64,000 nucleotides of DNA from an uncultured Acidobacteriaceae bacterium. Lineage in GTDB: Bacteria > Acidobacteriota > Terriglobia > Terriglobales > Acidobacteriaceae. This document shows positions 14,767-63,515 of the stretch, in pieces. The notes beneath the pieces were generated by a model. It did no database searches, was not told the origin of the DNA, and was given only the letters and a program-made list of their open reading frames with translations. How positions within the stretch are numbered: position 1 is the stretch's first letter; the number at the start of each line of letters is the position of its first letter. Where the stretch lies: positions 217,628 to 281,627 of the forward strand of contig CAWCSJ010000013.1 in assembly GCA_963798185.1 (NCBI GenBank), read 5' to 3'. A program made the translations under genes and the position numbers.

Positions 14767-17301
14767 ATGCACACCATCTGGCATGAGATTCGATACGCAC
14801 TGCGTCAGTTGCGCAAAGCGCCGGGCTTTGCCGCCGTCGCGGTTCTGACGCTGGCGCTGGGGATCGGCGCAAACATCGCGGTGTTCTCCGTGACCAACGC
14901 GGTCATGCTGAATCCCAGCGGAATTCCTCATGCCGCCGGGATGGTGGCGTTGCGGGCCCGCTATCGCGCCATGCCCGATCTGAACAACATCGGCATGTCG
15001 GCGCCGGACTTCGGTGACGCAGCCGACGGCAAGACCATCTTCTCGTCAGGCGCGGTCATGCAGCCCGCAAGCTTCAACTACGCCCGTGAAAACGGCAATC
15101 CTGAATTGTTGCAGGGCGCCACCGTTTCGTCGGGCTGGTTCGATACGTTCGATGTGCGGCCGTACCTGGGGCGCGTGTTCACGCCCGAAGAAGACCAGCC
15201 GGGCGCCGCGAATGAGGTCGTGTTGTCGTATCGGGTGTGGAAGAAGAGGTTCGGCTCCGATCCTAGTATCGTTGGCCAGACGCTGATGCTCGACAATCAG
15301 GCGTATCGCGTAGTGGGGGTGATGGGGCGGTCGTTCAATTGGCCGAACCAGGCGGAGATTTGGGTGCCGATAGCGCTGCCGCCGGCCCGCTATCACGATC
15401 AGAAATTTCGCTATAACGAAAACCTGTTTGCGGCGGGGCGACTGCAGCCGGGAATGACCGTGCAGCAGGCGAACGCCTATCTCGATCACAAGGCCGAGGA
15501 GAGCATCGCCTCGGAAGGCGGCAAGAGTTACGGCCGGGCCAGCGGGTGGGGCATGTTCGCGATGCCGCTGAGCGAATATATTGGCGGCAGCCTGCGCAAG
15601 CCGCTGACCATGTTGCTGATCGCGGTGGGCATGGTGCTGCTGATCGCATGCGCCAACATTGCGGGATTGCAGATGGCGCGGGCATCGGCGCGGGAGCGCG
15701 ATTTGGCCATCCGCGTTGCCCTGGGCGCGCAGAGGGTCCGGTTGCTGCGTCAGGCGCTGATGGAGAGCATCGTGATCACCGTCGCCGGAGTCGCGCTGGG
15801 ATTCGTGGTGGCGTGGGTGACGGTTCCGCTGTTGTTGCGTTACCTTCCGGATGCGCTCAGCACGACCATTCAGCCGTCGTTGGGCGGTCCCGTGCTGTTG
15901 TTTGTGACCGGCATTGCGGTGATGTGCTCGCTGCTGTGCGGACTGGTTCCCGCCTGGCAGCGTACCCAGCCGGGATGGTTCAACGCACTGCAGGAGGGCG
16001 GCCGCTCGGGCACGGGCAGCCTGATGCAGCAGCGGGCGCGCTCGTTTCTGGTGGTGGCACAGATCGCGCTGTCGCTGTTGTTGCTTACGGGCGCGGGCCT
16101 GCTGATGACCAGCCTGAAGGCGCTGGAGCAAGTGGAAACTGGGTTTCAACCGAGCGGTTTGCTGTCGGCGCGTTTCTCGTTGCCGCAGTCAGTTTACGGT
16201 GTGAAGCCACCGGTGACCAGCGGTCCGACGGCGAATGACGCGGCGGCGAAAGAAGCTGCGGCCAAGGAAGCGGCGGCGGCACAGGCCGCCAGCGATGCGA
16301 AAATTGCGGCATTCCTCAGCACGGTGCAAGAGCGGCTGCACAGTACTCCCGGGGTGGGCGGCGTAGCACTCGCCGACTCCATGCCCTTCGATAATCAGGG
16401 CGGCTCGTCGAGCTTTTACATTGAAGGGCGTCCGGCGGGACCGAATGATCCGGGACCGCACGGCAACGTTCGGGTGGTTTCGCCAGAATACTTTTCCACC
16501 CTACACCAGCCGCTGATGATGGGGAGGGAGTTCGTAGCGCAGGACCGCCAGGGCACCGAACAGGTCGCGGTCGTCGATTCGGTGTTGGCGCGCCAATACT
16601 GGCCGGGCAAAAATCCTATCGGCGAGCACATCGGATTCAACGATCCCGTGAAAGGCCCGTGGTACACGATTGTTGGGCTGGTCGGGCACGCCAGTTCCAC
16701 ATCGCTGGAGTCGGACCCCAACGAGGGCTTCTACTACATTGACTCGGCACAGTCGCCACAGTTGTCAAACACGGTCGTGGTGCGCAGTTCGCGGTCGCTG
16801 GCGGATTTGAAAAACGGCATGGCCGCCGCGGTGCGGTCGGCGGATTCCAGCATTCCGATCTACGACGTGAAGACGATGGAGCAGCGCGTGGACGAGTCGC
16901 TGCTGGGCCGCCGCTTTGTGGTGCTGTTGCTGACGACGTTTGCGGGATTGGCGTTGTTGCTGGCGGCGTTGGGGCTGTATGGGGTTATCAGCTACTCGGT
17001 ACGGATGCGGACGCGCGAACTCGGCGTGCGCATGGCCCTAGGCGCGCAGCGGGTCGAGGTGATGCAACTGGTGTTGATGCAGGGCATGCGGCTGGCGGTG
17101 ATCGGAGTAGTTTTTGGCGCGCTGGCGGCGCTGGCGTCGGGACGAATTTTTTCCAGTCTATTGTTCAAGGTGGGGATGTTGAACCCGCTGCCGTGGATCG
17201 GGGCGATGGCGATCCTGGTGGCGACCGTGTTGCTGGCCAGTTATCTGCCGGCGCGCCGTGCGGCGTCGATTGAGCCTATGCAGGCGCTGCGGACGGAGTA
17301 G
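14767..17301 (+). CDS. ADOP-family duplicated FtsX/MacB-like ABC permease
   Basis: 844 aa. Signature N-terminus IRYALRQLRKAPGFAAVAVLTLALGIGAN. Two FtsX modules, each preceded by a periplasmic domain. Confidence 0.9.
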   Translation: MHTIWHEIRYALRQLRKAPGFAAVAVLTLALGIGANIAVFSVTNAVMLNPSGIPHAAGMVALRARYRAMPDLNNIGMSAPDFGDAADGKTIFSSGAVMQPASFNYARENGNPELLQGATVSSGWFDTFDVRPYLGRVFTPEEDQPGAANEVVLSYRVWKKRFGSDPSIVGQTLMLDNQAYRVVGVMGRSFNWPNQAEIWVPIALPPARYHDQKFRYNENLFAAGRLQPGMTVQQANAYLDHKAEESIASEGGKSYGRASGWGMFAMPLSEYIGGSLRKPLTMLLIAVGMVLLIACANIAGLQMARASARERDLAIRVALGAQRVRLLRQALMESIVITVAGVALGFVVAWVTVPLLLRYLPDALSTTIQPSLGGPVLLFVTGIAVMCSLLCGLVPAWQRTQPGWFNALQEGGRSGTGSLMQQRARSFLVVAQIALSLLLLTGAGLLMTSLKALEQVETGFQPSGLLSARFSLPQSVYGVKPPVTSGPTANDAAAKEAAAKEAAAAQAASDAKIAAFLSTVQERLHSTPGVGGVALADSMPFDNQGGSSSFYIEGRPAGPNDPGPHGNVRVVSPEYFSTLHQPLMMGREFVAQDRQGTEQVAVVDSVLARQYWPGKNPIGEHIGFNDPVKGPWYTIVGLVGHASSTSLESDPNEGFYYIDSAQSPQLSNTVVVRSSRSLADLKNGMAAAVRSADSSIPIYDVKTMEQRVDESLLGRRFVVLLLTTFAGLALLLAALGLYGVISYSVRMRTRELGVRMALGAQRVEVMQLVLMQGMRLAVIGVVFGALAALASGRIFSSLLFKVGMLNPLPWIGAMAILVATVLLASYLPARRAASIEPMQALRTE

Positions 17302-17623: not shown

Positions 17624-17633
17624 AGGAATGATC

Positions 17634-20132
17634 ATGCAGCTTCTTCAAGATTTACGTTTCTCGTTGCGCCAACTGCGCAAGGCGCCCGTCTTCGCGCTGG
17701 TGGCCGTCGCCACATTGGCGCTTGGCATCGGCGCCAACACGGCCATCTTCACCTTGCTCGACCAGGCGGTGCTGCGTTCGCTGCCGGTCAGCCATCCTGA
17801 GCAACTGGTGCGGCTGCGCTACACGGGCGATGCTCCCGGCCACTACAACTCGTTCGGGGGCGATGACAACGATTATTTTTCTTATCCGATGTACCGCGAT
17901 CTGCGCGACAAGAGCCCTGATTTTGCGGGCCTCATCGCCAATGACCAGCAGAACGTTGCGGTCGAGTGGAACAACAAGCCCGACATGGTGAACTGCGAAC
18001 TGGTGTCGGGCAATTACTTCCCGGTACTGGGATTGCGGCCGGCCATGGGACGTCTTCTGCTGCCGTCGGACGAATCGCCCAGCGCCCCTGCCGTCGTGGT
18101 GTTGAGCTTCAACTACTGGATGCGCGAGTTTGGCGGCGATCCGCATGTGGTCAATCAGACCCTGCACATCAACGCACATCCGTTCACGATTGTTGGTGTC
18201 GCGCCGCCGCAGTTTCACAGCATCGTGGCCGGCTCGCCGCAGGACGTATTCGTTCCCATTTCAACCAAGAATGTCATCACGCCCCGCTGGCAGGACCTGA
18301 ATGACCACGATTCTTATTGGATGACCGTGGTTGGCCGGCTGAAGCCTGGTGTCAGCCGGGAGCGGGCGGAGATTTCGACCGGCCTTCTGTGGCACAGCTT
18401 GCGCGAGGAAGAGTTTAAGACCTTCACGCATCAGGCGCGCTGGCGCAAGCGGTTTCTGGATGACGCCAAGCTGCAAATCATCGACAGCGCCCGCGGCTTT
18501 TCTCCCTTCCGTGATCAGGTGAGCACGCCGTTGATGGTGCTGATGGGCATGGTGGGGCTGCTGGTGATCATGGCTTGCGTCAACGTGTCGAGCCTGCTGC
18601 TGGTTCGGGCCGCCGGACGCGCGCGTGAAATCTCGGTGCGCTACGCCATGGGCGCGGGACGCTGGCAGATCGTTCGCCAGTTGCTGACCGAAGGATTGAT
18701 GCTGGGCCTGCTGGGCGGTTTGCTGGGAGTTGTGCTGGCTCCGGTGGTAACGCGCACTCTTCTACGCCGCATCGTCGGCGCCTCGGCCACCGATCTTCCG
18801 TTTACCACCCGCCCCGATTTGCGCATTCTGCTGTTTGCGTTTGCTCTGTCCCTGCTGGTCTCGTTGGCGTTCAGTCTAGCTCCGGCGTTGCGCTTTCTGC
18901 GGCCCGACCTGGTGAGTTCGTTGAAGCAGCAAACCGGCACCGGCTCCAGTGGCGTGTTGCGTTTTCGCCGAATATCGGTCGGGATGCAAATCGGTCTCAG
19001 CTTAATACTGCTGGTGGGCGGGGGACTGTTTGTCCGCACACTGCGCAATCTGCGCTCTGTAGGTCTGGGATTCACGTCCGAGCATCTGGTGGGTTTTGGC
19101 ATCAATCCCCGGCTGGCGGGATATCAACCCGAACGGGCGTTCGATCTCTACAAGCGGGTTGACCAAACCCTGGCGGCGTTGCCGGGCACGCGCAACGTCG
19201 GCGGCACCGACGATCCGGATCTGGTGGGGACTTCGCAGACCGGTGGGGTGACCATCGCGGGCTATGTTTACAAGGAGGACGAGAAGAAGCAGGTTGAAGA
19301 ACCGGCAGTCACGCCCGGCTATTTTTCCACGTTGCAAATTCCTTTGCTGGCAGGCCGCACCTTTACCGATCAGGACGTCGCCGGCAAACCTAATGTGGTG
19401 GTGGTAAATGCCGCCTTTGCCCGTCGCTATTTCGGCGAGCCGCGCAACGCCGTGGGCCATATGATCTCGTTCGGCGGCACTGAGTCCAAAATGGACACCG
19501 AGATCGTCGGCGTTGTGGGAGATACCAAGCACACTCTGCGTGACCCGACATTGCCCACCGCCTACCGTCCGCGTTTTCAGTTGGCCGAGCCCAACAATCT
19601 CTATTTCTACGTGCGCACCTGGCAGTCGCCTGAGCTGGCGATGGGGAACATCCGGACCGCGATGCAGCAACTTGACTCGCGGCTGGCGCTGACCAATTTG
19701 CGAAGTGTGGACGATCAGATTGCCGAGAACCTTTCGACCGAAAGCCTGATCGCGTTGCTCTCAGCTGCTTTTGCAATGCTGGCGGTGCTGCTGGCGGCCA
19801 TCGGGCTGTACGGCGTGCTGGCCTATTCCACGGAACAACGCACGCGTGAGATTGGGATTCGCATGGCCCTGGGGGCGCAACGAAGCAGTGTCATGCGACT
19901 GGTGCTGGTGGATGTGTTGTGGCTGGCCGGAATCGCGATCGCGGTGAGCTTGCCGGTATCTTTGCTGCTGGCGCGGCTGTTGCGCAGCGTACTGTTTGGA
20001 GTAAGCCCCAGCGATCCGCTTACGCTGCTGCTGGGAACTTTGCTGGTCGGCGTGGTGGCTTCTCTGGCCGCGCTTATACCGGCTCGGCGCGCAGCATTGA
20101 CAGATCCGATGAGAGCGTTGCGGAGCGAGTGA
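17634..20132 (+). CDS. ADOP-family duplicated FtsX/MacB-like ABC permease (second copy)
   Basis: N-terminus MQLLQDLRFSLRQLRKAPVFALVAVATLALGIGAN. I prefer ATG 17634 (AAGGA 7 nt upstream) over ATG 17628. Confidence 0.88.
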   Translation: MQLLQDLRFSLRQLRKAPVFALVAVATLALGIGANTAIFTLLDQAVLRSLPVSHPEQLVRLRYTGDAPGHYNSFGGDDNDYFSYPMYRDLRDKSPDFAGLIANDQQNVAVEWNNKPDMVNCELVSGNYFPVLGLRPAMGRLLLPSDESPSAPAVVVLSFNYWMREFGGDPHVVNQTLHINAHPFTIVGVAPPQFHSIVAGSPQDVFVPISTKNVITPRWQDLNDHDSYWMTVVGRLKPGVSRERAEISTGLLWHSLREEEFKTFTHQARWRKRFLDDAKLQIIDSARGFSPFRDQVSTPLMVLMGMVGLLVIMACVNVSSLLLVRAAGRAREISVRYAMGAGRWQIVRQLLTEGLMLGLLGGLLGVVLAPVVTRTLLRRIVGASATDLPFTTRPDLRILLFAFALSLLVSLAFSLAPALRFLRPDLVSSLKQQTGTGSSGVLRFRRISVGMQIGLSLILLVGGGLFVRTLRNLRSVGLGFTSEHLVGFGINPRLAGYQPERAFDLYKRVDQTLAALPGTRNVGGTDDPDLVGTSQTGGVTIAGYVYKEDEKKQVEEPAVTPGYFSTLQIPLLAGRTFTDQDVAGKPNVVVVNAAFARRYFGEPRNAVGHMISFGGTESKMDTEIVGVVGDTKHTLRDPTLPTAYRPRFQLAEPNNLYFYVRTWQSPELAMGNIRTAMQQLDSRLALTNLRSVDDQIAENLSTESLIALLSAAFAMLAVLLAAIGLYGVLAYSTEQRTREIGIRMALGAQRSSVMRLVLVDVLWLAGIAIAVSLPVSLLLARLLRSVLFGVSPSDPLTLLLGTLLVGVVASLAALIPARRAALTDPMRALRSE

Positions 20133-23564: not shown

Positions 23565-23987
23565 TCAGCCGTTTTCTTTTCTGGCCCGTGGCAGCTTCAG
23601 CAGGCGAAGTTTGGGAACGCGCTCAAAATGGCTTACGTCCGCGGTCACGAGTACACGCTGAGTTCCGGTGAGCGCGGCGGCAAAGGCGTCGGCATACGGT
23701 ATGTTGTACTGGGCCTTCAGTTTCGCAGCGCGCACCGCATCTTCTGGCGTTACCCCCACCACAGAGAGCGGGACATTCTGCTCCAGCTCTGCCATCAGTG
23801 TTTCTGTCTTACCCAGGCCCACGCGCTTGACCAGGCTGTAGAACACCTCGCCCCAGTTGACAGCAGAAATCAACGCGACAGTACCCTCCTCCGCAGCGCC
23901 TTTGAAGACCTGAATGACTATCTCCGCGCCGTCACCCTTGATCAGATAGCGGTAGAGTGCGCTGGCATCCAGGACTTGCCTTCTCAT
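23565..23987 (-). CDS. PIN-domain (VapC-like) toxin
   Basis: 140 aa. N-terminus is MRRQVLDASAL. 4-nt overlap with the upstream antitoxin gene. Confidence 0.75.
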   Translation of the reverse strand: MRRQVLDASALYRYLIKGDGAEIVIQVFKGAAEEGTVALISAVNWGEVFYSLVKRVGLGKTETLMAELEQNVPLSVVGVTPEDAVRAAKLKAQYNIPYADAFAAALTGTQRVLVTADVSHFERVPKLRLLKLPRARKENG

Positions 23988-24214
23988 TCAAGCTCACGAT
24001 CAGCTTCGTGCTCAATGTCCGGTGGCAAGCCCAAGCCGGCCAGAACGCCACAATAATGTTGAATAGCATCCTCGTACTTTGGATAGATGCCAATCCCGCC
24101 TTGAATGCGCGCGAAGCGCACCCGAGTACCTCGCCCGATGCGAAAAGCACGGCGCAGCTTAGCCGGGATCACCAACTGGCCCTTCGACGTAATCACTCCT
24201 TCGAACTGATCCAT
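23984..24214 (-). CDS. AbrB/SpoVT-type antitoxin (VapB-like)
   Basis: 76 aa. The swapped-hairpin motif ITSKGQLVIPAKLRRAFRI is present. Confidence 0.75.
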   Translation of the reverse strand: MDQFEGVITSKGQLVIPAKLRRAFRIGRGTRVRFARIQGGIGIYPKYEDAIQHYCGVLAGLGLPPDIEHEADRELE

Positions 24215-24243: not shown

Positions 24244-24537
24244 ATCGTTGAATATGGCTTGAATGGCTGCCATTGATTTCCCGAATTCAAACGGTTTGCG
24301 TAAGGCGAAGCCGACTGTCGGCGCCGGTATTCCTTCGCTTTTTCAATAACATAGGCTTGTGACGCAGGTCACCATTCAATGTTTGATACTGCCTCTGGCC
24401 CGCTAAATCCGCCCGCTTGCTCCATCTTGGTTGGCCTTTCCAGCCTGGCCTATTAACTTAATCAATAGAGAAGTGTGGGACTTGGCCCGTGTGATTTGGG
24501 GTGGGCCGTTCTTAATCCATTTGTACGAGAGGCGTGA

Positions 24538-26643
24538 ATGCACAAGCCAGTGAAGTATGTTGAGAAAGCCGTCACCGTTGCTGCCAAAGGCGCATGGGCT
24601 GTTTTCGATAAGCTGAATAGCATCAATCCCAATCCTTCGTTTACGCCCAAGTGGTCCGATAAGCCACTCTTGAAGTCGTACCAGAAATCCAAACCGCCGC
24701 TGGGATGGCCGCGCGCGACCGATTCGCTGTGTCCCAAGTGCGTCCCGCAGATCCGTCAGGAGATTATCGACGGCAAGCTGCCGCTCGAAGTTCTGATGAA
24801 CGAGAAGGCGGGCGAGATCAAGGCGCAGATCATCGAGCGCGACGGCAAGATCCTGATGGTGAAGGACTGCCCGATCCACGGCCACTTTGAAGACGTCATG
24901 GCCATGGACACCGCATTCTTCAAGCATCTTGAAGAAGTTTTTCCTGGCCGCGACATTCGCGCGCACAACGACGAGAAGCTGCATCATCACGGCAGCAGCA
25001 CGGTGCTGCACGGCCGCGGCTCGGTGCTGACCATCGACCTGACCAACCGCTGCAACATGATGTGCGACCCCTGCTTCATGGACGCCAACCAGGTTGGCTT
25101 CGTCCATGAGCTGACGTGGGACGAAATCAAGACGATGCTCGACAACGCCATCACCATTAAGCCGCGGCGCCAGATGTCGGTGCAGTTCTCCGGCGGCGAG
25201 CCGACGTTGTCGCCATACTTCCTGGACGCGGTCGCTTACGCTCGCAAGGTGGGCTACAACAGCGTGCAGGCTGCGACCAACGGCATCGAGTTCGCCAAGA
25301 GTCCCGAGTTCGCCAAACAGGCTTTTGAAGCGGGTCTGCGCTATGCGTACCTGCAGTTCGATGGCATCGGCAATGCCGCCAACTCGCATCGCCTGGTCGG
25401 CAATCTGTTCGACGTAAAGTTGCAGGCGATCGAGAACCTGCATAACGCCGGCGTCGAGATTGTGCCGGTGGTGACGATCGTCAATGACCTGAACAACGAG
25501 CAGGTCGGACGCATCATTCAGTTCGCGCTCGACAATCCCAAGCGCATTTCGTTCCTCTCATTCCAGCCGGTATCGTTCACCGGACGCGACGAGGCGATCA
25601 CGGATGAGCGGCGTCAGGCGCAGCGCTACACGCTGTCGCATCTGGCGCACGACGTGAAGAGCCAGACTGGACTGGGCGAGCCGGTCCGCGACTGGTTCCC
25701 GATTTCGTTCATGAGCACCTTCTCCGATTGGGCCGACCTGGTTCACGGGCCAGACAAAGATTGGGGCGCGCTGAGCTGCGGTTGCCACCCGAATTGCGGC
25801 GTCGGCATGGCCGTCATGATCGACAAGGAAACCAAGGAAGCGGTCCCGGTGACGGCGTTCCTGAACGGCGACACCATCGCGAAAGACATTGCGAAGGTGA
25901 ACGACGCAGCGCGCGGCAAGTGGATGTCGATTGCGGGCATGACGCTGGCGCTACTGAAGAATTACGATCCGTTCAAGTCGCCGACGCACTTCAAGTTCAC
26001 GGACCTGCTGAAGAAGTTCGACAAGACCTTCGGCGCGACCGGCAAAGATTACGGCAAGGTCACGGGCGACCGTACCGAAACCGACATCGAGCGCCGCCGT
26101 CGCGATCGCTGGAATTTTCTGTTCATCGCGGGCATGTGGTTCCAGGACCTGTTCAATTACGATTTCCGCCGCACCGAGCAGTGCATTATTCCTTACGCCA
26201 CGCAGGAAGGCGAGATCAGCTTCTGCGCGTACAACACCGGCGTGGGCTGGCGCAATATCGTGGAGAAGATGCACATGACGGCGACTCTGACCAAGTGGTA
26301 CGAGGAGCATGGGCGTCACGAGATTTTCGCCGGCGGCAAGAAGGTCGGGCTGGAGACCACGGCGCATACCCTCAAGCTGGTTGACGAGCACGTTAATGCC
26401 GAAGCCAATCACACGCTTGACGATCTCGGTATCGCCAAGAACGCTCGCCAGGAAAAGTTCAAGGCGCGCGACGAACGCGTGAAGGCCGAAGCTGAGAAAG
26501 CTCGCATGCTGGCGCTCTACAAAGAGCACGTGCTGGGCGAGAAGCCGGTCGTCAACGACGGCTTCATTCCGCTGGGCAGCATCGGCGGCATCAAGCCCGC
26601 GCAGCCCGCAGTGGAAGAGCGTGAAGCCGTGTACGGGGACTAG
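24538..26643 (+). CDS. radical SAM enzyme of the COG1964 / archaeal Tes (tetraether lipid synthase) type
   Basis: 701 aa. CxxxCxxC is present in NRCNMMCDPC. The N-terminal Cys/His pattern is CPKC...CPIHGH. Blocks SVQFSGGEPTL, ATNGIEFA, YLQFDG and FQPVSFTGRD match what I recall for this family. Confidence 0.7.
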   Translation: MHKPVKYVEKAVTVAAKGAWAVFDKLNSINPNPSFTPKWSDKPLLKSYQKSKPPLGWPRATDSLCPKCVPQIRQEIIDGKLPLEVLMNEKAGEIKAQIIERDGKILMVKDCPIHGHFEDVMAMDTAFFKHLEEVFPGRDIRAHNDEKLHHHGSSTVLHGRGSVLTIDLTNRCNMMCDPCFMDANQVGFVHELTWDEIKTMLDNAITIKPRRQMSVQFSGGEPTLSPYFLDAVAYARKVGYNSVQAATNGIEFAKSPEFAKQAFEAGLRYAYLQFDGIGNAANSHRLVGNLFDVKLQAIENLHNAGVEIVPVVTIVNDLNNEQVGRIIQFALDNPKRISFLSFQPVSFTGRDEAITDERRQAQRYTLSHLAHDVKSQTGLGEPVRDWFPISFMSTFSDWADLVHGPDKDWGALSCGCHPNCGVGMAVMIDKETKEAVPVTAFLNGDTIAKDIAKVNDAARGKWMSIAGMTLALLKNYDPFKSPTHFKFTDLLKKFDKTFGATGKDYGKVTGDRTETDIERRRRDRWNFLFIAGMWFQDLFNYDFRRTEQCIIPYATQEGEISFCAYNTGVGWRNIVEKMHMTATLTKWYEEHGRHEIFAGGKKVGLETTAHTLKLVDEHVNAEANHTLDDLGIAKNARQEKFKARDERVKAEAEKARMLALYKEHVLGEKPVVNDGFIPLGSIGGIKPAQPAVEEREAVYGD

Positions 26644-27029
26644 TTTCTTTACACTGTCATCCTGTCTATAACGACGTTGGCATTGTCAAGAGCACACGAA
26701 TCCTCTGCGCGCCGGAAGCGGAGTCAAGGGCGCCATCTTTTGGCGTTCATCTCGACCTTGACGCCGGTTCCGGCGCGCCCACCATGGAGCGAGGAACGAA
26801 GCGCAGCGCGGTAGAGCTGAGCTTCGTTCCTTAGCAGAAGATTTGGTCTTTCCTTGCATCCGATCTCCGGCTCGTTCTTCTGTAATCCGGCGATGGGACT
26901 GTCACCGGCACTCCCACCAGCCATCTATTCGGGTCTCCCATTCCCTTGCGGGAGGTTGGCCCATGATTACGGCTTCGATCTCCCCACCGTCTGCGGCAGG
27001 GAGGCAGGCTGCCCACTCAAGCGTTCGGT

Positions 27030-28077
27030 CTACTTTCGACCACAGTATGACTCGGGCTCACCTGCATGCGAGCGCCGGCGGCTGCGCCATTCGGCATAGC
27101 TGATGCCGTCGCGCAACATACAGTACAATCGCACCGCCAGCTTGCGGGCCACCGCTACTTTGGCCACCCCCGCGTGGGCGTGGGTGTGCTTGCAGTGGCC
27201 GTAAAAACGTTTCAACTCCGGGTCCAGACGCGCCGCACTGTGCCCGCCCTGCACCAGCAGGTAGCGCACAAACGAGTTGCCCTGCTTGCTGATGCCGCCC
27301 AACCGCTGCTTGCCTCCGCTGGAGCGTTCGCGCGGAATCAACCCGAAATAGCTGGCCACCTGGCGCGCTCCGGCAAATCGCTCCACCGGACCCAGCGTAA
27401 CCACCAAAGCCAAACTGATCACCGGCCCCACTCCGGGATGGCTCATCAGCCGTACCGCATCGGGTCGCGCTTGGGCTTCGCACCAGCACCGCCGTGTCTA
27501 GGCTGGCGATCTGCTGTTCCAGTTGGTCCAGCAGCCCAGCAAAGTCGTCCGCCGTTGGGCCGCGTACCGACCCAACGGCAGGGCTTCCAGTTGCTGCCGT
27601 CCGCTCCGCGTCCATAGTCGCCACTTCAGCTGCAGCCCCTGATTCAGCGCCAGAAACTGCAACTGATTCTTGACCTGGGTTTGCCACTGCACCAGCTTGT
27701 GCCGATGCACCAGCAACTGCCGCGCATCCCGGTCCGCCGCGACGGTACCCAGATGCGCGGAAAGCGCCCTTCCACCAGCAGCTTCACGATGTGCTCGGCA
27801 TCCCGCTTATCGGTCTTCTGCTGGCGGGTCATCGAAGCCCGGATCTGGGTGGCATCGCCCATCCATACCTGGTGCCCCAGCCCTTCCAGCAGGCGCTCGA
27901 ACCACCCGCTGAAACCCGTGCTCTCGATCCCCACCAACGCCCCCGCAGCCAGGCCACCATAGAACTCGATCGCCTCTTGCGGATGCGCTAGTCGCCGCTG
28001 CTGATCTCCCCCGTCTGTTTGTCAAAGATCGCTACTTGCTGAAACCCCGGATGGTAATCGCATCCTATAATCAACAT
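27030..28077 (-). mobile_element. IS110-family transposase gene, degraded (at least 3 frame disruptions)
   Basis: N-terminal MLIIGCDYHPGFQQVAIFD (ATG 28077) runs into a TAG. It continues in other frames as QQRRLAHPQEAIEFY..GIESTGFSGWFERLL, KLVQWQTQVKNQLQ and the C-terminal GVGPVISLALVV..FGLIPRERSSGGK. Element ends were not identified. Confidence 0.8.
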
Positions 28078-28272
28078 GGTCGGCTCCTTCTGAGCCCTTG
28101 ATCGGATTGCACCATCAATGTATGAGTTGGAGGAGTGTTGTAATAAGCGCAGGCGGCGCGTCGCCGCCGGAGTCGAAGGATCTGCGGTTCAACCGGTTGC
28201 GCCAGCGGCCGGTTTTTTTGTCATCCTAAGCGGCGAGTGAGGGAGGAGTCGAAGCACACCTGTTCTTCCCGT

Positions 28273-29058
28273 CTACTTCCCTTTGAACTGCGCCGGGCGC
28301 TTCTCCAGAAAGGCGCGGGTGCCTTCGTTCTTGTCCTCGGTGGCGCAGCAGACGGCAAACAGTGTGGCCTCCAGAAAAAGCCCGTCGGCCAGGGTGAGAT
28401 CGAAGCCGCGATTCACCGCTTCCATTGCGTACTGAATAGCAAGCGGCGCGTTGGCGATGATCTTGGCAGCGATGGCCTCGGCGCGCGCGATGAGGTCCGC
28501 TTGCGCAACGACCTCGTTCACCAGGCCAATGCGATGGGCTTCCTGCGCGGTAATCATCTCGCCAGTCAGAATCTGCTGCATCGCCAGTCCCTTGCCCACC
28601 AGCCGCGACAGCCGCTGGGTGCCGCCATATCCGGGGATCAGCCCAAGCTTTACCTCAGGCTGGCCGAGTTTGGCGTTGTCGCTGGCCAGGCGCATGGTGC
28701 AGGCCATCGCCAGCTCGCAACCGCCGCCAAGCGCGAAGCCGTTCACGCAGGCAATCACCGGCTTGCCAAGATTTTCGATGGCATCGACGATGGCCTGCCC
28801 GCGGTGGGTGTATTCCTTCGCCGAAACCGGTGTCTGCTGCGACAATTCGCCAATGTCGGCGCCGGCGACGAAGGCCTTCTCGCCCGCGCCGGTCAGGATG
28901 GCGACGCGCACGTCGGCGTCGTCCTTGATGGACGCGAAAGCATCTTTGAGCTCCTGCATGGTGGCCATGTTCAGCGCGTTAAGCACCTTCGGCCGGTCAA
29001 TGGTGATGTAGGCAATGTGGTTTTTCTTTTCGAACTTGATGTTTTGGAAGTCGGTCAT
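28273..29058 (-). CDS. enoyl-CoA hydratase (crotonase family)
   Basis: 261 aa. ITIDRPKVLNALN and GAGEKAFVAGADI are present. Confidence 0.88.
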   Translation of the reverse strand: MTDFQNIKFEKKNHIAYITIDRPKVLNALNMATMQELKDAFASIKDDADVRVAILTGAGEKAFVAGADIGELSQQTPVSAKEYTHRGQAIVDAIENLGKPVIACVNGFALGGGCELAMACTMRLASDNAKLGQPEVKLGLIPGYGGTQRLSRLVGKGLAMQQILTGEMITAQEAHRIGLVNEVVAQADLIARAEAIAAKIIANAPLAIQYAMEAVNRGFDLTLADGLFLEATLFAVCCATEDKNEGTRAFLEKRPAQFKGK

Positions 29059-29118
29059 GGATTTGCCTTTCGGCTAATGAGAATTGTGAATGCGATGCGT
29101 GAAAGTTTTGTGTCGACG

Positions 29119-29212
29119 TGTGCCGTCCCTACGGGACTCGGTTCTTAAAACACTCCCACCCAGCGCTGAAGCGCTGGGCTATCTTATGCCGTCCCACTGC
29201 GTGGGACTCGTT
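29119..29212. repeat. REP-like multi-hairpin element (C-type)
   Basis: GTCCCTACGGGAC, CCCAGCGCTGAAGCGCTGGG and GTCCCACTGCGTGGGAC. Its reverse complement is colinear with 63425-63515. Confidence 0.85.
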
Positions 29213-29240
29213 TCTAAAAACAGCATTCAGCATCGCCAAA

Positions 29241-29282
29241 GCACTTGCTAACGGCTAATTGCCAAATGCTAAATGCTGGTTG
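29241..29282. repeat. heptamer array, about 6 units (CTAACGG CTAATTG CCAAATG CTAAATG)
   Basis: Ends 1 nt before the stop-codon complement of the gene ending at 29284. Confidence 0.8.
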
Positions 29283-29283
29283 G

Positions 29284-30180
29284 CTATACAAACTTTCCCG
29301 GCACCGGCTTGTTGGGGTCGGTGTAATCGTAGAAGCCTTTGCCGGTCTTGCGGCCGTACCAGCCGGCCAGCACCAGTCGGCGCAGCAGCGGAGGCGAGGC
29401 GAAGCGCGGCTCCTTGAATTCGTCAAACATGACGTGCGTGATGTAATACGTGGTGTCGAGGCCGACAAAATCGAGCAGCGTAAACGGTCCCATCGGGTAT
29501 CCGCATCCCAGCTTCATGGCTTCGTCGATGTCGGTGATGGAGCCGACGCCCTCCTCATACGCGCGAATTGCGTCGAGTAAATACGGTACCAGCAGCCGGT
29601 TTACGATGAATCCAGTTTTATCGCTGGTGCGCACCGGCACCTTGCCCAGCTTCTTGGCGAACTCATACGCGGTGTCGTACACCTCGGGCGCGGTGGCGAT
29701 GGTCTTTACCACTTCCACCATCTTCATCATGGGGACAGGATTGAAGAAGTGCAGCCCGATGAAGCGCTCCGGCCGCTTGGTGGCCGTCATCAACTCGGTG
29801 ACAGAGATCGATGACGTGTTGGTGGCGAAGATGGCGTCCTTCTTCACGACGGCGTCGAGCTGCGCGTAGGTCTTGCGTTTCTCTTCGACGTTTTCGATGA
29901 TGGCCTCGATGACGATATCGCGGTCGGCGAGGTCCTGCATGTTGGTCGTGCCCTTCAGGCGCGACTGCGCTTGCGTTTTTTGCTCGGCGGTCAGGCCGCC
30001 TTTCTCCGGACCGCGCTCGACCAGGCGCGACAGGGATTTCTCAATGCCGGCAAAGCCCTTGTCAAGAAACTTCTGGTCTTGTTCGAGCACCACCACGTCG
30101 AAACCCGCGGTGGCCGCCACTTGCGCGATGCCTGAGCCCATCAGGCCACAACCGAGCACGCCAACTTTTTTGATATCCAT
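29284..30180 (-). CDS. hbd: 3-hydroxybutyryl-CoA / 3-hydroxyacyl-CoA dehydrogenase
   Basis: 298 aa. Rossmann N-terminus is KKVGVLGCGLMGSGIAQV. Confidence 0.88.
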   Translation of the reverse strand: MDIKKVGVLGCGLMGSGIAQVAATAGFDVVVLEQDQKFLDKGFAGIEKSLSRLVERGPEKGGLTAEQKTQAQSRLKGTTNMQDLADRDIVIEAIIENVEEKRKTYAQLDAVVKKDAIFATNTSSISVTELMTATKRPERFIGLHFFNPVPMMKMVEVVKTIATAPEVYDTAYEFAKKLGKVPVRTSDKTGFIVNRLLVPYLLDAIRAYEEGVGSITDIDEAMKLGCGYPMGPFTLLDFVGLDTTYYITHVMFDEFKEPRFASPPLLRRLVLAGWYGRKTGKGFYDYTDPNKPVPGKFV

Positions 30181-30237
30181 GAGTGCGCCTTCCTTCTTTG
30201 AATGGATCGATCAGTCAAAGGTGCTGAGTCCATAATT

Positions 30238-30328
30238 TTGTCATCACGAGCGAAGCGAGGGATCTGCTCTTGGGTGGTTGGGGAAAAAGCAGATTCCTCG
30301 CGCCAAAATCCGGCGCTCGTAATGACAA
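30238..30328. repeat. nested-palindrome MITE-like element (A-type) inside an operon
   Basis: TTGTCATCACGAGCGAAGCGAGGGATCTGCT ... AGCAGATTCCTCGCG ... GCGCTCGTAATGACAA. Confidence 0.85.
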
Positions 30329-30329
30329 T

Positions 30330-30758
30330 TCATAACGTCCTGGCGCCTGCTTCCTTCTGTCCCGTGCCCGCTTCCGTGATGCGAGTGTTTTGCATTGCCG
30401 CAATGCGCCAGTTGCCGTCGACTTTTTCGGCAACGATGGTCGGGCGCGCTTCCACGTCGCCAGCAGCGCCGCCCTCTGGAAACTGCAAAAACTGGCGAAG
30501 GAGAATGATGGCGACGCCCGGGCGCAGAAACCGGATCTTCTCGACGCTATACCTTACGGTGCTCCCTTTGTAGATGGTTCCGAAGATCATGCGGTGGCCG
30601 GTTTCGATGGCAGCTCGTCCGGCATAGTAACCGCCGAGAATGTGGATGAAGTCGGCATCGTCCATGAAGAGCGCAGCAAAGCTGGTGCTGTCGGCCGCAT
30701 TCCATGCAGCTTCCAACTGATACACCATCCCATGCAATGCCCGTTCTTCGCTGGTCAC
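30330..30758 (-). CDS. NTF2-like (SnoaL/DUF4440, SgcJ/EcaC-type) protein
   Basis: I prefer the GTG start at 30758 (AAGGA 8 nt upstream, just after the thiolase stop). The LEAAWNAADSTSFAALFMDDADFI pattern is present. Confidence 0.65.
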   Translation of the reverse strand: MTSEERALHGMVYQLEAAWNAADSTSFAALFMDDADFIHILGGYYAGRAAIETGHRMIFGTIYKGSTVRYSVEKIRFLRPGVAIILLRQFLQFPEGGAAGDVEARPTIVAEKVDGNWRIAAMQNTRITEAGTGQKEAGARTL

Positions 30759-30769
30759 GCTTAATGTCC

Positions 30770-31972
30770 TTATCGCTGCAGATTTTCGATGATGACCGCG
30801 ATGCCCTGGCCGCCACCAATGCACGCGGTCGACAATCCGTACTTACCCTTGCGACGGCGGAGTTCGTTCATCAGCGTGATGAGCAGGCGCGTGCCGGTTG
30901 CGCCCAACGGATGCCCGAGCGCGATGGCGCCACCATTGACGTTGACCTTTTTGCGGTCCAATCCCAACTCTTTCTCGACGGCCAGATACTGCGCGGCAAA
31001 GGCCTCGTTCACTTCGATCAAATCGATGTCGTCGAGCTTCAGCCCGGCTTTCTTCAGCGCGATGCGCGTGGAGGGAACCGGCCCGGCGCCCATAATCTTG
31101 GGATCGACACCGGCAATTCCCCAAGCCACGATTCGCGCCATGGGCTTCAGATTACCTTTCTCAGCTTCGGCAAGTGGCATCACGACAACGGCCGCGCCGC
31201 CATCCACAATTCCGCTGGCATTGCCGGCGGTGACCGAGCCGTTCTTCCCGAACGCGGGCTTCAGCTTCGCCAGGGTCTCCATTGTGGTCTCGGGACGGCG
31301 ATGGTCGTCCTCGGTGAACATCTCGCCCGTCGGCTCGCCTTTGCGATTGCGCAGCGCGACCGGGGTTGTCTCTTCCTGATGCCGTCCCGCCTTGTGGGCT
31401 TCGTCAGCAAGCTGCTGCGAGCGCAGCGCGAACTCATCCTGCATTTCGCGCGTCACGCCGTGCTGGCTGGCGTAAAGCTCGGCCGTGTTCGCCATGTACA
31501 GGCCGCAATAGGTATCGAGCAGCGCCACCATGAGCGAGTCCTCAAGCTTGCCTTCGCCGAGGCCGACCCCCCAACGCATGCCGCGGATCACGTGCGGGGC
31601 TTGCGACATGGATTCCATGCCCCCGGCGAGCACAGTTGTAGCCTCGCCCAGTTGAATCATCTGCGCGGCACTCACCACGGACTGCATGCCTGAGCCACAC
31701 AGCCGGTTCACGGTCAGCGCCGGCACTTCGATGGGCACACCGGCTTTGAGCGATACGTGACGCGCGCCGTACAGAGCATCTCCTGAGGTCTGCTGCGCGT
31801 TGCCCATCACCACGTGATCAATTTCGGCGGGCTCGACGCCCGAGCGTCGCATGGCTTCCTCGGAGGCGATTGCGCCCAAATCCATGGCGGTAAAGTCGCG
31901 CAGCTTGCCGCAGTAGCGGCCCATGGGCGTGCGGGCCCCGTTGACGATAACAATTTCCGTTGTGTTCGACAT
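30770..31972 (-). CDS. acetyl-CoA C-acetyltransferase (thiolase II)
   Basis: 400 aa. NRLCGSGMQS (active Cys), GHPLGATGTRLL and CIGGGQG are present. Confidence 0.92.
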   Translation of the reverse strand: MSNTTEIVIVNGARTPMGRYCGKLRDFTAMDLGAIASEEAMRRSGVEPAEIDHVVMGNAQQTSGDALYGARHVSLKAGVPIEVPALTVNRLCGSGMQSVVSAAQMIQLGEATTVLAGGMESMSQAPHVIRGMRWGVGLGEGKLEDSLMVALLDTYCGLYMANTAELYASQHGVTREMQDEFALRSQQLADEAHKAGRHQEETTPVALRNRKGEPTGEMFTEDDHRRPETTMETLAKLKPAFGKNGSVTAGNASGIVDGGAAVVVMPLAEAEKGNLKPMARIVAWGIAGVDPKIMGAGPVPSTRIALKKAGLKLDDIDLIEVNEAFAAQYLAVEKELGLDRKKVNVNGGAIALGHPLGATGTRLLITLMNELRRRKGKYGLSTACIGGGQGIAVIIENLQR

Positions 31973-63424: not shown

Positions 63425-63515
63425 CCGAGTCCCGCACAGCGGGACGAAAGAGCTTAGCCCAGCGCTTTAGCGCTGGGTAGGCATCAGCATAGATCCCGGG
63501 TCCTGTAGGGACGGC
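63425..63515. repeat. REP-like multi-hairpin element (C-type) just upstream of the RAYT-like gene
   Basis: GTCCCGCACAGCGGGAC, CCCAGCGCTTTAGCGCTGGG and GTCCTGTAGGGAC. It is the reverse complement of the layout at 29119-29212. Confidence 0.85.

What the first reader, a model, noticed from the sequence alone, without database searches (positions are those of the whole stretch)
24538..26643. Tes/COG1964-type radical SAM enzyme: candidate bacterial membrane-spanning (tetraether) lipid synthase, isolated between a TA module and an IS110 relic
Seen in sequence: this is a monocistronic 701-aa ORF. It has a CxxxCxxC cluster (CNMMCDPC), an N-terminal CPKC...CPIHGH pair and the blocks SVQFSGGEPTL, ATNGIEFA, YLQFDG and FQPVSFTGRD. 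From memory these blocks match the archaeal MJ0619/Tes (GDGT-MAS synthase) family and not SPASM maturases or MoaA/PqqE types. It also has a C-terminal extension of about 250 aa ending in a Lys/Glu-rich tail. Established knowledge: archaeal Tes joins two lipid tails to make tetraethers. Acidobacteria make membrane-spanning iso-diabolic acid and brGDGT lipids, and to my knowledge the coupling enzyme has not been biochemically pinned down. Inference: this could be that enzyme. The flanking vapBC-like pair (23565-24214) and degraded IS110 (27030-28077) suggest the locus is mobile or recently acquired.
Basis: partly seen in the sequence, partly recalled or inferred. Interest (0 to 1): 0.7.

Follow-up and report, generated by a model that had tools for sequence, protein, structure and literature searches.

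The report
Acidobacterial Tes-like lipid-coupling radical SAM enzyme
This gene encodes a bacterial relative of the archaeal enzyme that welds two lipid tails into a membrane-spanning lipid; it is a credible but still unproven candidate for making the iso-diabolic-acid/brGDGT lipids of soil Acidobacteria, an idea already published in 2022.

Summary
It is a specific homolog of archaeal tetraether synthase Tes/GDGT-MAS. MJ0619 (7TOL) matches at E 5e-59, and an AlphaFold model superposes on 7TOM at TM 0.85; the next fold is MoaA at 0.49. It keeps the rubredoxin site, the radical SAM cluster, the C-terminal [4Fe-4S] ligands, the labile Met (M533) and the invariant Tyr (Y553). It is not an equivalog. 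[quoted passage not shown] It adds an N-terminal amphipathic helix. The C-terminal extension beyond Tes is about 110 aa, not 250. The family occurs in at least 592 species genomes of Terriglobales and Bryobacterales at 78-99% identity, under strong purifying selection (dN/dS 0.01-0.19), with no conserved neighbours. The vapBC pair and IS110 relic are local insertions absent from close relatives, so "mobile or recently acquired" is not supported. The most likely function is tail-to-tail coupling of iso-C15 chains. That hypothesis was published by Zeng 2022, Chen 2022 and Halamka 2023 and remains without direct biochemical proof in the papers I could read.

The parts
24538..26643 (+). Tes-like radical SAM gene, 701 aa plus stop; candidate membrane-spanning lipid (iso-diabolic acid) synthase
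   Evidence: ORF. NCBIfam NF045702 gives 320 bits, E 2e-95. 7TOL matches at E 4.9e-59. The fold superposes on 7TOM at TM 0.85.
24547..24624 (+). N-terminal amphipathic helix (aa 4-29). Absent from MJ0619; possibly a peripheral membrane anchor (inferred).
   Evidence: AF2 predicts helix 4-29 with pLDDT 80-92. The hydrophobic moment is 0.46-0.53, against a protein mean of 0.23 (sd 0.11), and there is no TM segment. The segment is conserved in 80 species.
24709..24903 (+). Rubredoxin-type Fe site domain: C65-X2-C68 ... C111-X2-H114, with a spacer of 42 residues versus 20 in MJ0619
   Evidence: Pfam PF23545 matches at E 1.4e-12. C111 and H114 align to MJ C33 and H36 and are invariant.
24913..25032 (+). 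[quoted passage not shown] It has no Cys, is His-rich (H143, H149, H151), and H151 is invariant.
   Evidence: In the MSA, MJ C73 aligns to a gap, C77 to H151 and C80 to S154. H151 and G152 are invariant in 57 sequences.
25033..25587 (+). Radical SAM core with C172-X3-C176-X2-C179 and the GGEPTL SAM-binding motif
   Evidence: Pfam PF04055 matches at E 4.8e-17. The cysteines are invariant.
25588..26304 (+). C-terminal auxiliary [4Fe-4S] and lipid-pocket domain. C420, C549 and C563 align to MJ C338, C455 and C470; M533 to the labile Met439; Y553 to Tyr459. C414, C416 and H417 are additional invariant residues.
   Evidence: Alignments. This is the most conserved block, with identity 0.97 over aa 526-590 in 80 species.
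26305..26640 (+). C-terminal extension beyond Tes (aa 590-701). Residues 590-605 are conserved; then come a variable region, a charged helix at 634-664 and a disordered tail.
   Evidence: The alignment to 7TOL ends at aa 589. Conservation is 0.70 then 0.51. pLDDT is below 50 for 669-701.
24339..24537 (+). Conserved 5' leader/promoter region, including the palindrome TGTGA-N6-TCAC (24358-24372) and the RBS GAGAGG (24527-24532)
   Evidence: Conserved at DNA level in L001-L007 although the flanking genes differ. The half-sites are invariant and the spacer varies. There is no RNA covariation and no Rfam hit.
23565..24214 (-). Context only: a vapBC-type toxin-antitoxin pair (PIN toxin plus AbrB/MazE antitoxin). 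It is an accessory insertion, not part of the system.
   Evidence: Pfam PF01850 at 2.9e-11 and PF04014 at 1.7e-5. Absent at this position in L001 and L004.
27030..27937 (-). Context only: a degraded, frameshifted IS110-family transposase
   Evidence: PF02371 at 1.8e-23 and PF01548 at 6e-4, in two frames. Window 26646-28272 replaces about 270 bp of intergenic DNA in L001.

Best explanation
The gene encodes a bacterial, Tes-derived radical SAM enzyme. It most likely joins the terminal (omega) carbons of two iso-C15 chains of membrane glycerolipids, making iso-diabolic-acid-based membrane-spanning lipids. In organisms that also reduce esters to ethers, these lipids are the precursors of brGDGTs.

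Inferred mechanism, by analogy with GDGT-MAS:
1. The CX3CX2C cluster (C172/C176/C179) reductively cleaves SAM.
2. The 5'-deoxyadenosyl radical abstracts H from a terminal methyl of a chain lying in the hydrophobic pocket.
3. The substrate radical is parked as a C-S bond on the C-terminal [4Fe-4S] cluster (C420/C549/C563), after the labile M533 leaves. Y553 lies nearby.
4. A second SAM generates a radical on the second chain. This attacks the cluster-bound carbon and forms the Csp3-Csp3 bond.

Unlike archaeal Tes, the enzyme is predicted to carry two rather than three [4Fe-4S] clusters plus the rubredoxin-type iron. It is also predicted to sit on the membrane through an extra N-terminal amphipathic helix.

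Shown here: homology, fold, retention of the catalytic residues, loss of the N-cluster ligands, distribution and selection. Inferred: the substrate, the product and the role of the helix.
For: - Sequence: the best NCBIfam family is Tes (E 2e-95). MJ0619/7TOL matches at E 4.9e-59 over aa 94-589.
- Fold: the AF2 model (pTM 0.83) matches 7TOM at E 3e-32 and TM 0.85. Every other rSAM scores 0.62 or less and covers only the core.
- Catalytic residues: the rubredoxin ligands, the RS cluster, the three [Fe4S4]C cysteines, Met439 and Tyr459 are all conserved in the query. They are invariant in 57 clade members.
- Selection: aa 526-590, around M533/Y553, is 97% conserved across 80 species. dN/dS is 0.01-0.19 with dS of 0.6-1.3.
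- Distribution: at least 592 species genomes, all named ones Acidobacteriota of Terriglobales (SD1) and Bryobacterales (SD3). The literature reports abundant iso-diabolic acid or brGDGTs in exactly these groups (PMC13274423; PMC13159169).
- Alternative enzyme: Mss, the verified bacterial coupling enzyme, is reported absent from Acidobacteria.
- Second-hand: Ca. Koribacter versatilis (family Korobacteraceae, as this window) has a Tes homolog but no Ger and makes only iso-DA tetraesters (PMC13023045 citing Chen et al. 2025).
Against: - No experiment on any bacterial Tes homolog was found in the readable literature. A 2025 paper states explicitly that the activity is unconfirmed.
- The protein misses the curated Tes cutoff (320 versus 450 bits) and lacks the [Fe4S4]N ligands. 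The role of that cluster is unknown.
- Sahonero-Canavesi et al. found Tes homologs in only 3 of 14 iso-DA-producing acidobacteria under stringent criteria and suggested an alternative pathway.
- My similarity values to genuine Tes are 33% and about 300 bits. They resemble the published Edaphobacter hit (32%, 4e-61) more than the Koribacter/Solibacter hits (42%/40%, 1e-149/1e-139). The published prime candidates may therefore be a different, closer paralog.
- No lipid genes are linked to it in 80 loci.
- The hosts are mostly aerobes, and rSAM enzymes are O2-labile.
Confidence: 0.6

Rival explanations
1. It is a Tes-like lipid enzyme doing a different job from iso-diabolic acid synthesis. Examples are intramolecular macrocyclisation, cross-linking of already coupled chains, or coupling of other hydrophobic tails. 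The real iso-DA synthase would then be a closer Tes paralog or an unknown enzyme.
For: - It is only about 33% identical to genuine Tes, falls below the equivalog cutoff and has a different cofactor set.
- Several Tes-like lineages coexist in Acidobacteriota: the P0134 type, the P0298/P0300 types and the T. roseus type.
- The published top Koribacter/Solibacter hits are more Tes-like than this family.
Against: - All residues implicated in the Tes coupling chemistry are retained and are the most conserved part of the protein.
- The distribution matches iso-DA-rich subdivisions.
- No B12 domain or other module suggests methylation or ring chemistry.
Confidence: 0.2
2. It is a conserved gene with a function unrelated to membrane-spanning lipids. 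One example is the older annotation for MJ0619 relatives, 7,8-dihydro-6-hydroxymethylpterin dimethyltransferase, which JGI still applies to many members. Another is an unknown small-molecule substrate.
For: - JGI names many members 'HMPT dimethyltransferase', and the Pfam domain name retains 'HMPTM'.
- There is no lipid gene context.
Against: - Lloyd et al. could not corroborate the pterin methylase activity and showed that MJ0619 is a lipid synthase.
- Acidobacteria are not known to make methanopterin (background knowledge).
- Conservation of the labile Met and the Tyr argues for Tes-type chemistry.
Confidence: 0.07
3. One reading: the gene is a recently acquired or mobile cargo gene, carried by or associated with the IS110 element and the TA module.
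For: It is flanked by a vapBC pair and an IS110 relic, and synteny is poorly conserved around it.
Against: - The 99%-identical ortholog in L001 has the same downstream genes (ECH, HCDH, thiolase) without the IS. L001 and L004 lack the TA pair.
- The family is present in at least 592 species, and an NJ tree groups the sequences broadly by taxon.
- GC and GC3 are host-like.
- dS of 0.6 against the nearest relative, with dN/dS of 0.01, indicates long vertical residence.
Confidence: 0.04

Closest known systems
Archaeal tetraether synthase Tes / GDGT-MAS (MJ0619, PDB 7TOL/7TOM; MA_1486; NCBIfam NF045702)
   Same: - The overall four-domain fold matches (TM 0.85).
- The rubredoxin-type CX2C...CX2H site and the CX3CX2C radical SAM cluster are present.
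- The C-terminal [4Fe-4S] ligands, the labile Met and the invariant Tyr are retained.
- It has no transmembrane segments and stands alone as a gene.
   Different: - Identity to genuine Tes is about 33%, and the NF045702 score of 320 is below the 450 cutoff.
- All three [Fe4S4]N cysteines are lost, with an invariant His at the C77 position. The protein has only 11 Cys in total, so two [4Fe-4S] clusters are predicted instead of three.
- The rubredoxin domain carries a 22-aa insertion.
- There is an extra N-terminal segment of about 57 aa with an amphipathic helix, and an extra C-terminal segment of about 110 aa.
- The host is a bacterium, so the substrate would be iso-branched acyl or alkyl G3P lipids rather than phytanyl G1P diethers (inferred).
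Bacterial 'Tes homologs' proposed as brGDGT synthases (Zeng et al. 2022; Chen et al. 2022; Halamka et al. 2023; Ca. Koribacter versatilis, Ca. Solibacter usitatus, Edaphobacter aggregans)
   Same: The phylum, the protein lineage and the functional hypothesis are the same. The window comes from a Korobacteraceae/Terriglobales genome (names).
   Different: I could not establish whether the published Koribacter/Solibacter proteins (42%/40% identity to MA_1486) are orthologs of this 701-aa family or a closer paralog. This family's similarity to genuine Tes (33%, about 300 bits) matches the figure published for E. aggregans (32%, 4e-61) better.
Mss, membrane-spanning lipid synthase of Thermotoga maritima / Thermoanaerobacter ethanolicus (Sahonero-Canavesi et al. 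2022)
   Same: It is a radical SAM enzyme that couples two fatty-acid tails into (iso-)diabolic acids. This is the reaction proposed here.
   Different: It is a different rSAM family. The authors report no Tes homologs in Mss organisms and no Mss homologs in Acidobacteria. It was active only under anaerobic conditions. No Mss sequence was available, so it was not compared directly here.
TrsS radical SAM (seleno)protein (NCBIfam NF045646)
   Same: It is the second-best family hit and shares the N-terminal half (aa 93-378).
   Different: The score is 204 bits against a cutoff of 490, and the C-terminal domain is not matched. The protein is not a member.

Membership tests
Tes / GDGT-MAS (archaeal tetraether synthase) | Radical SAM CX3CX2C cluster within a partial TIM barrel | tested here: met
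   C172/C176/C179 align to MJ C98/C102/C105. PF04055 matches at E 5e-17.
Tes / GDGT-MAS (archaeal tetraether synthase) | N-terminal rubredoxin-type mononuclear Fe site (C9-X2-C12-X20-C33-X2-H36) | tested here: met
   C65-X2-C68 ... C111-X2-H114. PF23545 matches at E 1e-12. C111 and H114 align to C33 and H36 and are invariant. The spacer is 42 residues instead of 20.
Tes / GDGT-MAS (archaeal tetraether synthase) | N-terminal auxiliary [Fe4S4]N cluster ligated by C73, C77, C80 plus His | tested here: not met
   The aligned positions are a gap, H151 and S154. There is no Cys between residues 112 and 171. The same loss occurs throughout the bacterial clade, while 10 of 11 genuine Tes representatives plus MJ0619 keep all three Cys.
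Tes / GDGT-MAS (archaeal tetraether synthase) | C-terminal auxiliary [Fe4S4]C cluster with a labile Met ligand (Met439), the site of the C-S intermediate | tested here: met
   C420/C549/C563 align to C338/C455/C470 and M533 aligns to Met439. All are invariant in 57 sequences. This is by alignment only; metal content was not measured.
Tes / GDGT-MAS (archaeal tetraether synthase) | Strictly conserved active-site Tyr459 | tested here: met
   Y553 aligns to Tyr459 and is invariant.
Tes / GDGT-MAS (archaeal tetraether synthase) | Score at or above the curated NCBIfam equivalog cutoff (NF045702, 450 bits) | tested here: not met
   The query scores 320.2 bits. Genuine representatives score 463-593.
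Tes / GDGT-MAS (archaeal tetraether synthase) | Overall fold of GDGT-MAS | tested here: met
   Foldseek against 7TOM gives E 2.9e-32, target-normalised TM 0.85 and 557 aligned columns.
Tes / GDGT-MAS (archaeal tetraether synthase) | Catalyses Csp3-Csp3 coupling of two lipid tails (GDGT or macrocyclic archaeol formation) | not testable with these tools
   This requires expression or knockout followed by lipid LC-MS.
Mss (bacterial membrane-spanning lipid synthase) | Sequence homology to Tmari_0825 / WP_129545148.1 | not tested
The literature reports no mss homologs in Acidobacteria.
SPASM/twitch radical SAM maturases, MoaA, PqqE, NirJ/Ahb | Family-specific C-terminal SPASM or MoaA domain, and a score above the curated cutoff | tested here: not met
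   Only the rSAM core (aa ~163-365) matches, with scores of 27-75 bits against cutoffs of 180-650. PDB hits to MoaA, SkfB and PqqE have E of 7e-6 or weaker.
TrsS radical SAM (seleno)protein | Score at or above the NF045646 cutoff (490 bits) over the full length | tested here: not met
   The score is 204.6 bits and only aa 93-378 match.

The most novel reading that the evidence does not exclude
The 701-aa Terriglobia family is a distinct offshoot of Tes with two [4Fe-4S] clusters, anchored to the membrane by an amphipathic helix. It, rather than the closer Tes paralogs highlighted so far, would be the long-sought iso-diabolic-acid synthase of aerobic soil Acidobacteria. Loss of the surface [Fe4S4]N cluster would be an adaptation to oxic life. 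Expression would be controlled through the conserved TGTGA-N6-TCAC (CRP/FNR-type) operator, which could explain the O2-dependent brGDGT production seen in cultures.
Probability: 0.25. Interest if true: 0.65.

Novelty: new member of a known kind. Interest (0 to 1): 0.35.

Why it matters
brGDGT distributions are widely used as proxies for past temperature and pH, yet the enzyme that makes their membrane-spanning backbone in Acidobacteria has no direct biochemical proof. This family is highly conserved, single-copy in every locus examined, and nearly ubiquitous among the Terriglobia loci I recovered. That makes it a clean genetic marker and a direct target for knockout or expression tests. The clade-wide loss of one of the three Fe-S clusters also gives a natural experiment on what that cluster does in Tes chemistry. 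The central hypothesis has been in print since 2022, however, so the finding mostly re-identifies a known candidate and does not open a new question.

Tried and rejected
1. Conserved lipid operon. All-against-all clustering of ORFs in 80 loci found no universal neighbour. Recurrent neighbours by my reading of the cluster sequences (not family-scanned) are RlpA/SPOR-like, MutY-like, peptidases and a sigma factor. Elsewhere in the window there are no other rSAM genes and no Ger, ElbD or Grs genes.\n2. Riboswitch or leader RNA. Rfam finds nothing in the leader. RNAalifold gives a covariation term of about 0. I therefore read the leader as a promoter/operator.\n3. Which cultured species carry the family. 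Two cluster look-ups and the third homolog search returned almost only unnamed MAG proteins. The genome scan was truncated at 600 rows. Absence of K. versatilis, S. usitatus or T. roseus from the list is therefore uninformative.\n4. Source record. The look-up of encoding contigs for the exact protein reports it is not on record.\n5. Chen et al. 2025 (GCA 401:190) is not held. The supplements of Zeng 2022 and Sahonero-Canavesi 2022 contain no usable acidobacterial tables.\n6. A possible new metal site formed by H151 with C414, C416 and H417. C416 also occurs in several genuine Tes proteins, so the CGCH motif is not clade-specific. I dropped this as a claim.\n7. Rejected outright: SPASM, MoaA or PqqE membership, and recent horizontal or mobile acquisition.
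Full report
**Observation**

The ORF at 24538-26643 (+) exists as described. It starts with ATG and encodes 701 aa. A GAGAGG ribosome-binding site lies 5 nt upstream.

| Motif | Position (aa) |
|---|---|
| CPKC | 65 |
| CPIHGH | 111 |
| CNMMCDPC | 172 |
| SVQFSGGEPTL | 214 |
| ATNGIEFA | 246 |
| YLQFDG | 271 |
| FQPVSFTGRD | 342 |

The neighbours are also as described:
- a PIN-domain toxin (23565-23987, -) overlapping an AbrB/MazE-type antitoxin (23984-24214, -);
- a frameshifted IS110 transposase, with Transposase_20 at 27030-27446 and a weak DEDD domain at 27644-27937.

**What it is**

- Pfam finds a radical SAM core (aa 168-330) and the N-terminal zinc ribbon typical of MJ0619 relatives (aa 58-122).
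- Among 18,950 NCBIfam models the best is tetraether lipid synthase Tes, at E 2e-95 and 320 bits over aa 61-580. MoaA, PqqE, NirJ/Ahb and the SPASM maturases match only the core at 75 bits or less.
- Among all PDB sequences, GDGT-MAS from M. jannaschii (7TOL) stands alone at E 4.9e-59 over aa 94-589. The next hit is MoaA at 7e-6.
- An AlphaFold2 model built on 57 homologs (pLDDT 78.7, pTM 0.83) superposes on 7TOM with E 3e-32 and TM 0.85. The next fold is MoaA at TM 0.49-0.53, over the core only.

**Membership versus resemblance**

Lloyd et al. 2022 (PMC9433317) define GDGT-MAS by four metallocofactors. These are a rubredoxin-type Fe, an N-terminal [Fe4S4]N cluster, the RS cluster, and a C-terminal [Fe4S4]C cluster whose labile Met439 makes room for a substrate C-S intermediate. 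Tyr459 is invariant in 1,000 archaeal homologs.

I aligned the query with MJ0619, eleven representatives at or near the NCBIfam Tes cutoff (421-593 bits), and bacterial relatives. The result:

| GDGT-MAS feature | MJ0619 residues | Query residues | Status |
|---|---|---|---|
| Rubredoxin-type Fe | C9-X2-C12-X20-C33-X2-H36 | C65, C68, C111, H114 | kept |
| RS cluster | C98, C102, C105 | C172, C176, C179 | kept |
| [Fe4S4]C cluster | C338, C455, C470 | C420, C549, C563 | kept |
| Labile Met | Met439 | M533 | kept |
| Invariant Tyr | Tyr459 | Y553 | kept |
| [Fe4S4]N cluster | C73, C77, C80 plus His | gap, H151, S154 | lost |

The protein has only 11 cysteines: 3 in the rubredoxin site, 3 in the RS cluster and 5 in the C-terminal domain. 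None is left for a third cluster.

The same loss runs through a large bacterial clade. It includes the Terriglobia 701-aa family, P0121, the Thermoanaerobaculia-type proteins of about 620-690 aa, and the P0134 type. Ten of the eleven Tes representatives, and MJ0619, keep the Cys triad.

Consistent with this, the query scores 320 bits on NF045702, against a curated cutoff of 450. Genuine Tes representatives score 463-593.

It therefore works like a Tes in every residue tied to the coupling chemistry. It is a divergent bacterial subfamily, not an equivalog. Lloyd et al. state that the roles of the other metallocofactors are unclear, so losing the surface [Fe4S4]N cluster need not abolish the reaction.

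**Extensions**

- The alignment to MJ0619 ends at aa 589, so the real C-terminal extension is about 110 aa, not 250.
- Residues 590-605 are conserved across the bacterial clade. The remainder is variable: a charged helix at 634-664 and a disordered tail.
- There is also a conserved segment of about 57 aa at the N-terminus that archaeal Tes lacks. Its helix (aa 4-29) has a hydrophobic moment about two standard deviations above the protein mean, and no transmembrane segment exists. I infer peripheral membrane binding.

**Distribution, selection and context**

- The protein is 92-100% identical to more than 120 database clusters, several named 'Candidatus Korobacteraceae' or Terriglobales.
The best 80 are 77-99% identical. 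The named ones come from Terriglobales (Acidipila rosea, Granulicella aggregans, and MAGs labelled Edaphobacter, Terracidiphilus and Sulfotelmatobacter) and from Bryobacterales.
- Against the nearest relative, L001, the protein is 98.7% identical while the DNA is 88.8% identical. That gives dN/dS of 0.01 at dS of 0.60. More distant pairs give 0.05-0.19.
- GC and GC3 match the neighbouring genes.
- No neighbour is conserved across the 80 loci.
- In L001 the same downstream operon (enoyl-CoA hydratase, 3-hydroxyacyl-CoA dehydrogenase, thiolase) follows directly after about 270 bp. The window has 1.6 kb there, containing the IS110 relic.
- The vapBC pair is missing from both L001 and L004.

So the TA module and the IS are insertions next to a long-resident, vertically inherited, stand-alone gene.

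**Function and prior knowledge**

- Zeng et al. 2022 found 456 bacterial Tes homologs and proposed them as brGDGT synthases. They named Ca. Koribacter versatilis, Ca. Solibacter usitatus and Edaphobacter aggregans.
- Chen et al. 2022 chose S. usitatus for its Tes homolog and showed that it makes brGDGTs. Halamka et al. 2023 proposed a Tes-based pathway.
- Sahonero-Canavesi et al. 2022 verified a different enzyme, Mss, in Thermotoga and Thermoanaerobacter. They found no Mss in Acidobacteria, and Tes homologs in only 3 of 14 iso-DA producers under stringent criteria.
- A 2025 paper still calls the bacterial Tes activity unconfirmed. A 2026 review mentions bacterial Tes homologs only as bioinformatic detections.
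- A 2026 paper cites Chen et al. 2025 as showing Tes involvement in iso-diabolic tetraesters. It says K. versatilis has a Tes homolog without Ger and makes only tetraesters. I could not read that paper.

The best explanation is a Tes-type coupling of two iso-C15 tails that yields iso-diabolic-acid membrane-spanning lipids. My confidence is about 0.6.

**Unresolved point**

Several Tes-like lineages exist in Acidobacteriota. Their best BLAST similarity to genuine Tes representatives differs:

| Lineage | Identity | Bits |
|---|---|---|
| This 701-aa family | 33% | about 300 |
| P0134 type | 38.6% | 378 |
| Terriglobus roseus type (WP_014786616.1) | 32% | about 250 |

The T. roseus type also lacks the [Fe4S4]C ligands, the Met and the Tyr.

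The published values are 42%/1e-149 for Koribacter and 40%/1e-139 for Solibacter, against 32%/4e-61 for E. aggregans. These suggest that the published prime candidates could be a closer paralog, and that this family corresponds to the weaker class of hit.

**Side observation**

About 200 bp upstream of the start codon is conserved at DNA level in eight Korobacteraceae loci, although the flanking genes differ. The conserved block reads TTTCAATAACATAG..C.TGTGA-N6-TCACCATTCAATGT. The half-sites are invariant and the spacer varies.

There is no RNA covariation and no Rfam match. It looks like a CRP/FNR-type operator. This is suggestive, given the reported effect of O2 on brGDGT production, but it is untested. 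The pattern alone occurs at chance frequency in the window (1 observed, 0.37 expected).

**Verdict**

This is a real and correctly recognised Tes-family gene. It is ordinary in the sense that it belongs to a published candidate class. The new details are the clade-wide loss of the N-terminal Fe-S cluster, the added termini, the extreme conservation and the conserved operator-like leader. Interest is 0.35.

Noticed in passing
window 24339-24537 (palindrome 24358-24372): The 5' leader of the Tes-like gene is conserved across species. It contains TGTGA-N6-TCAC with invariant half-sites and a variable spacer, resembling a CRP/FNR-family operator. 'CCATTCAA' just downstream is also conserved in Acidipila, Granulicella and Bryobacterales loci.
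   Followed up: partly
window 29159-29208 (+) and 63428-63477 (-): Two copies of the Acido-Lenti-1 sRNA motif (RF01687; 52 and 46 bits against a gathering score of 37). The first lies between the enoyl-CoA hydratase and 3-hydroxyacyl-CoA dehydrogenase genes.
   Followed up: no
P0137 (Terriglobus roseus WP_014786616.1), P0150, P0185: A further-diverged Tes-like lineage in Acidobacteria and metagenomes. It keeps the rSAM cluster and rubredoxin but lacks the [Fe4S4]C ligands C338 and C455, the labile Met (two of three members) and the invariant Tyr. It probably has a different chemistry.
   Followed up: partly
P0255 cluster (MCK4454207.1 and relatives; Candidatus Parcubacteria / Minisyncoccales): CPR bacteria encode a protein that scores as genuine Tes (584 bits, well above the cutoff). 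In my alignment it shows L/S/Y at the three [Fe4S4]N cysteine positions. This may be an alignment artefact or a second independent loss.
   Followed up: no
window 28273-31972 (-): A crotonase, 3-hydroxyacyl-CoA dehydrogenase and thiolase operon (butyryl-CoA / beta-oxidation type) lies immediately downstream and is syntenic with L001. The IS110 relic sits between it and the Tes-like gene only in this window.
   Followed up: partly
window 14767-17301 (+) and 17628-20132 (+): Two tandem paralogous MacB/FtsX-type permease genes (844 and 834 aa).
   Followed up: no
window 24538-26643 versus L001 10001-12103: The protein is 98.7% identical while the DNA is only 88.8% identical (dN/dS about 0.01, dS 0.60). 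This is very strong purifying selection for a 701-aa enzyme, and identity stays near 79% across orders (Terriglobales versus Bryobacterales).
   Followed up: yes
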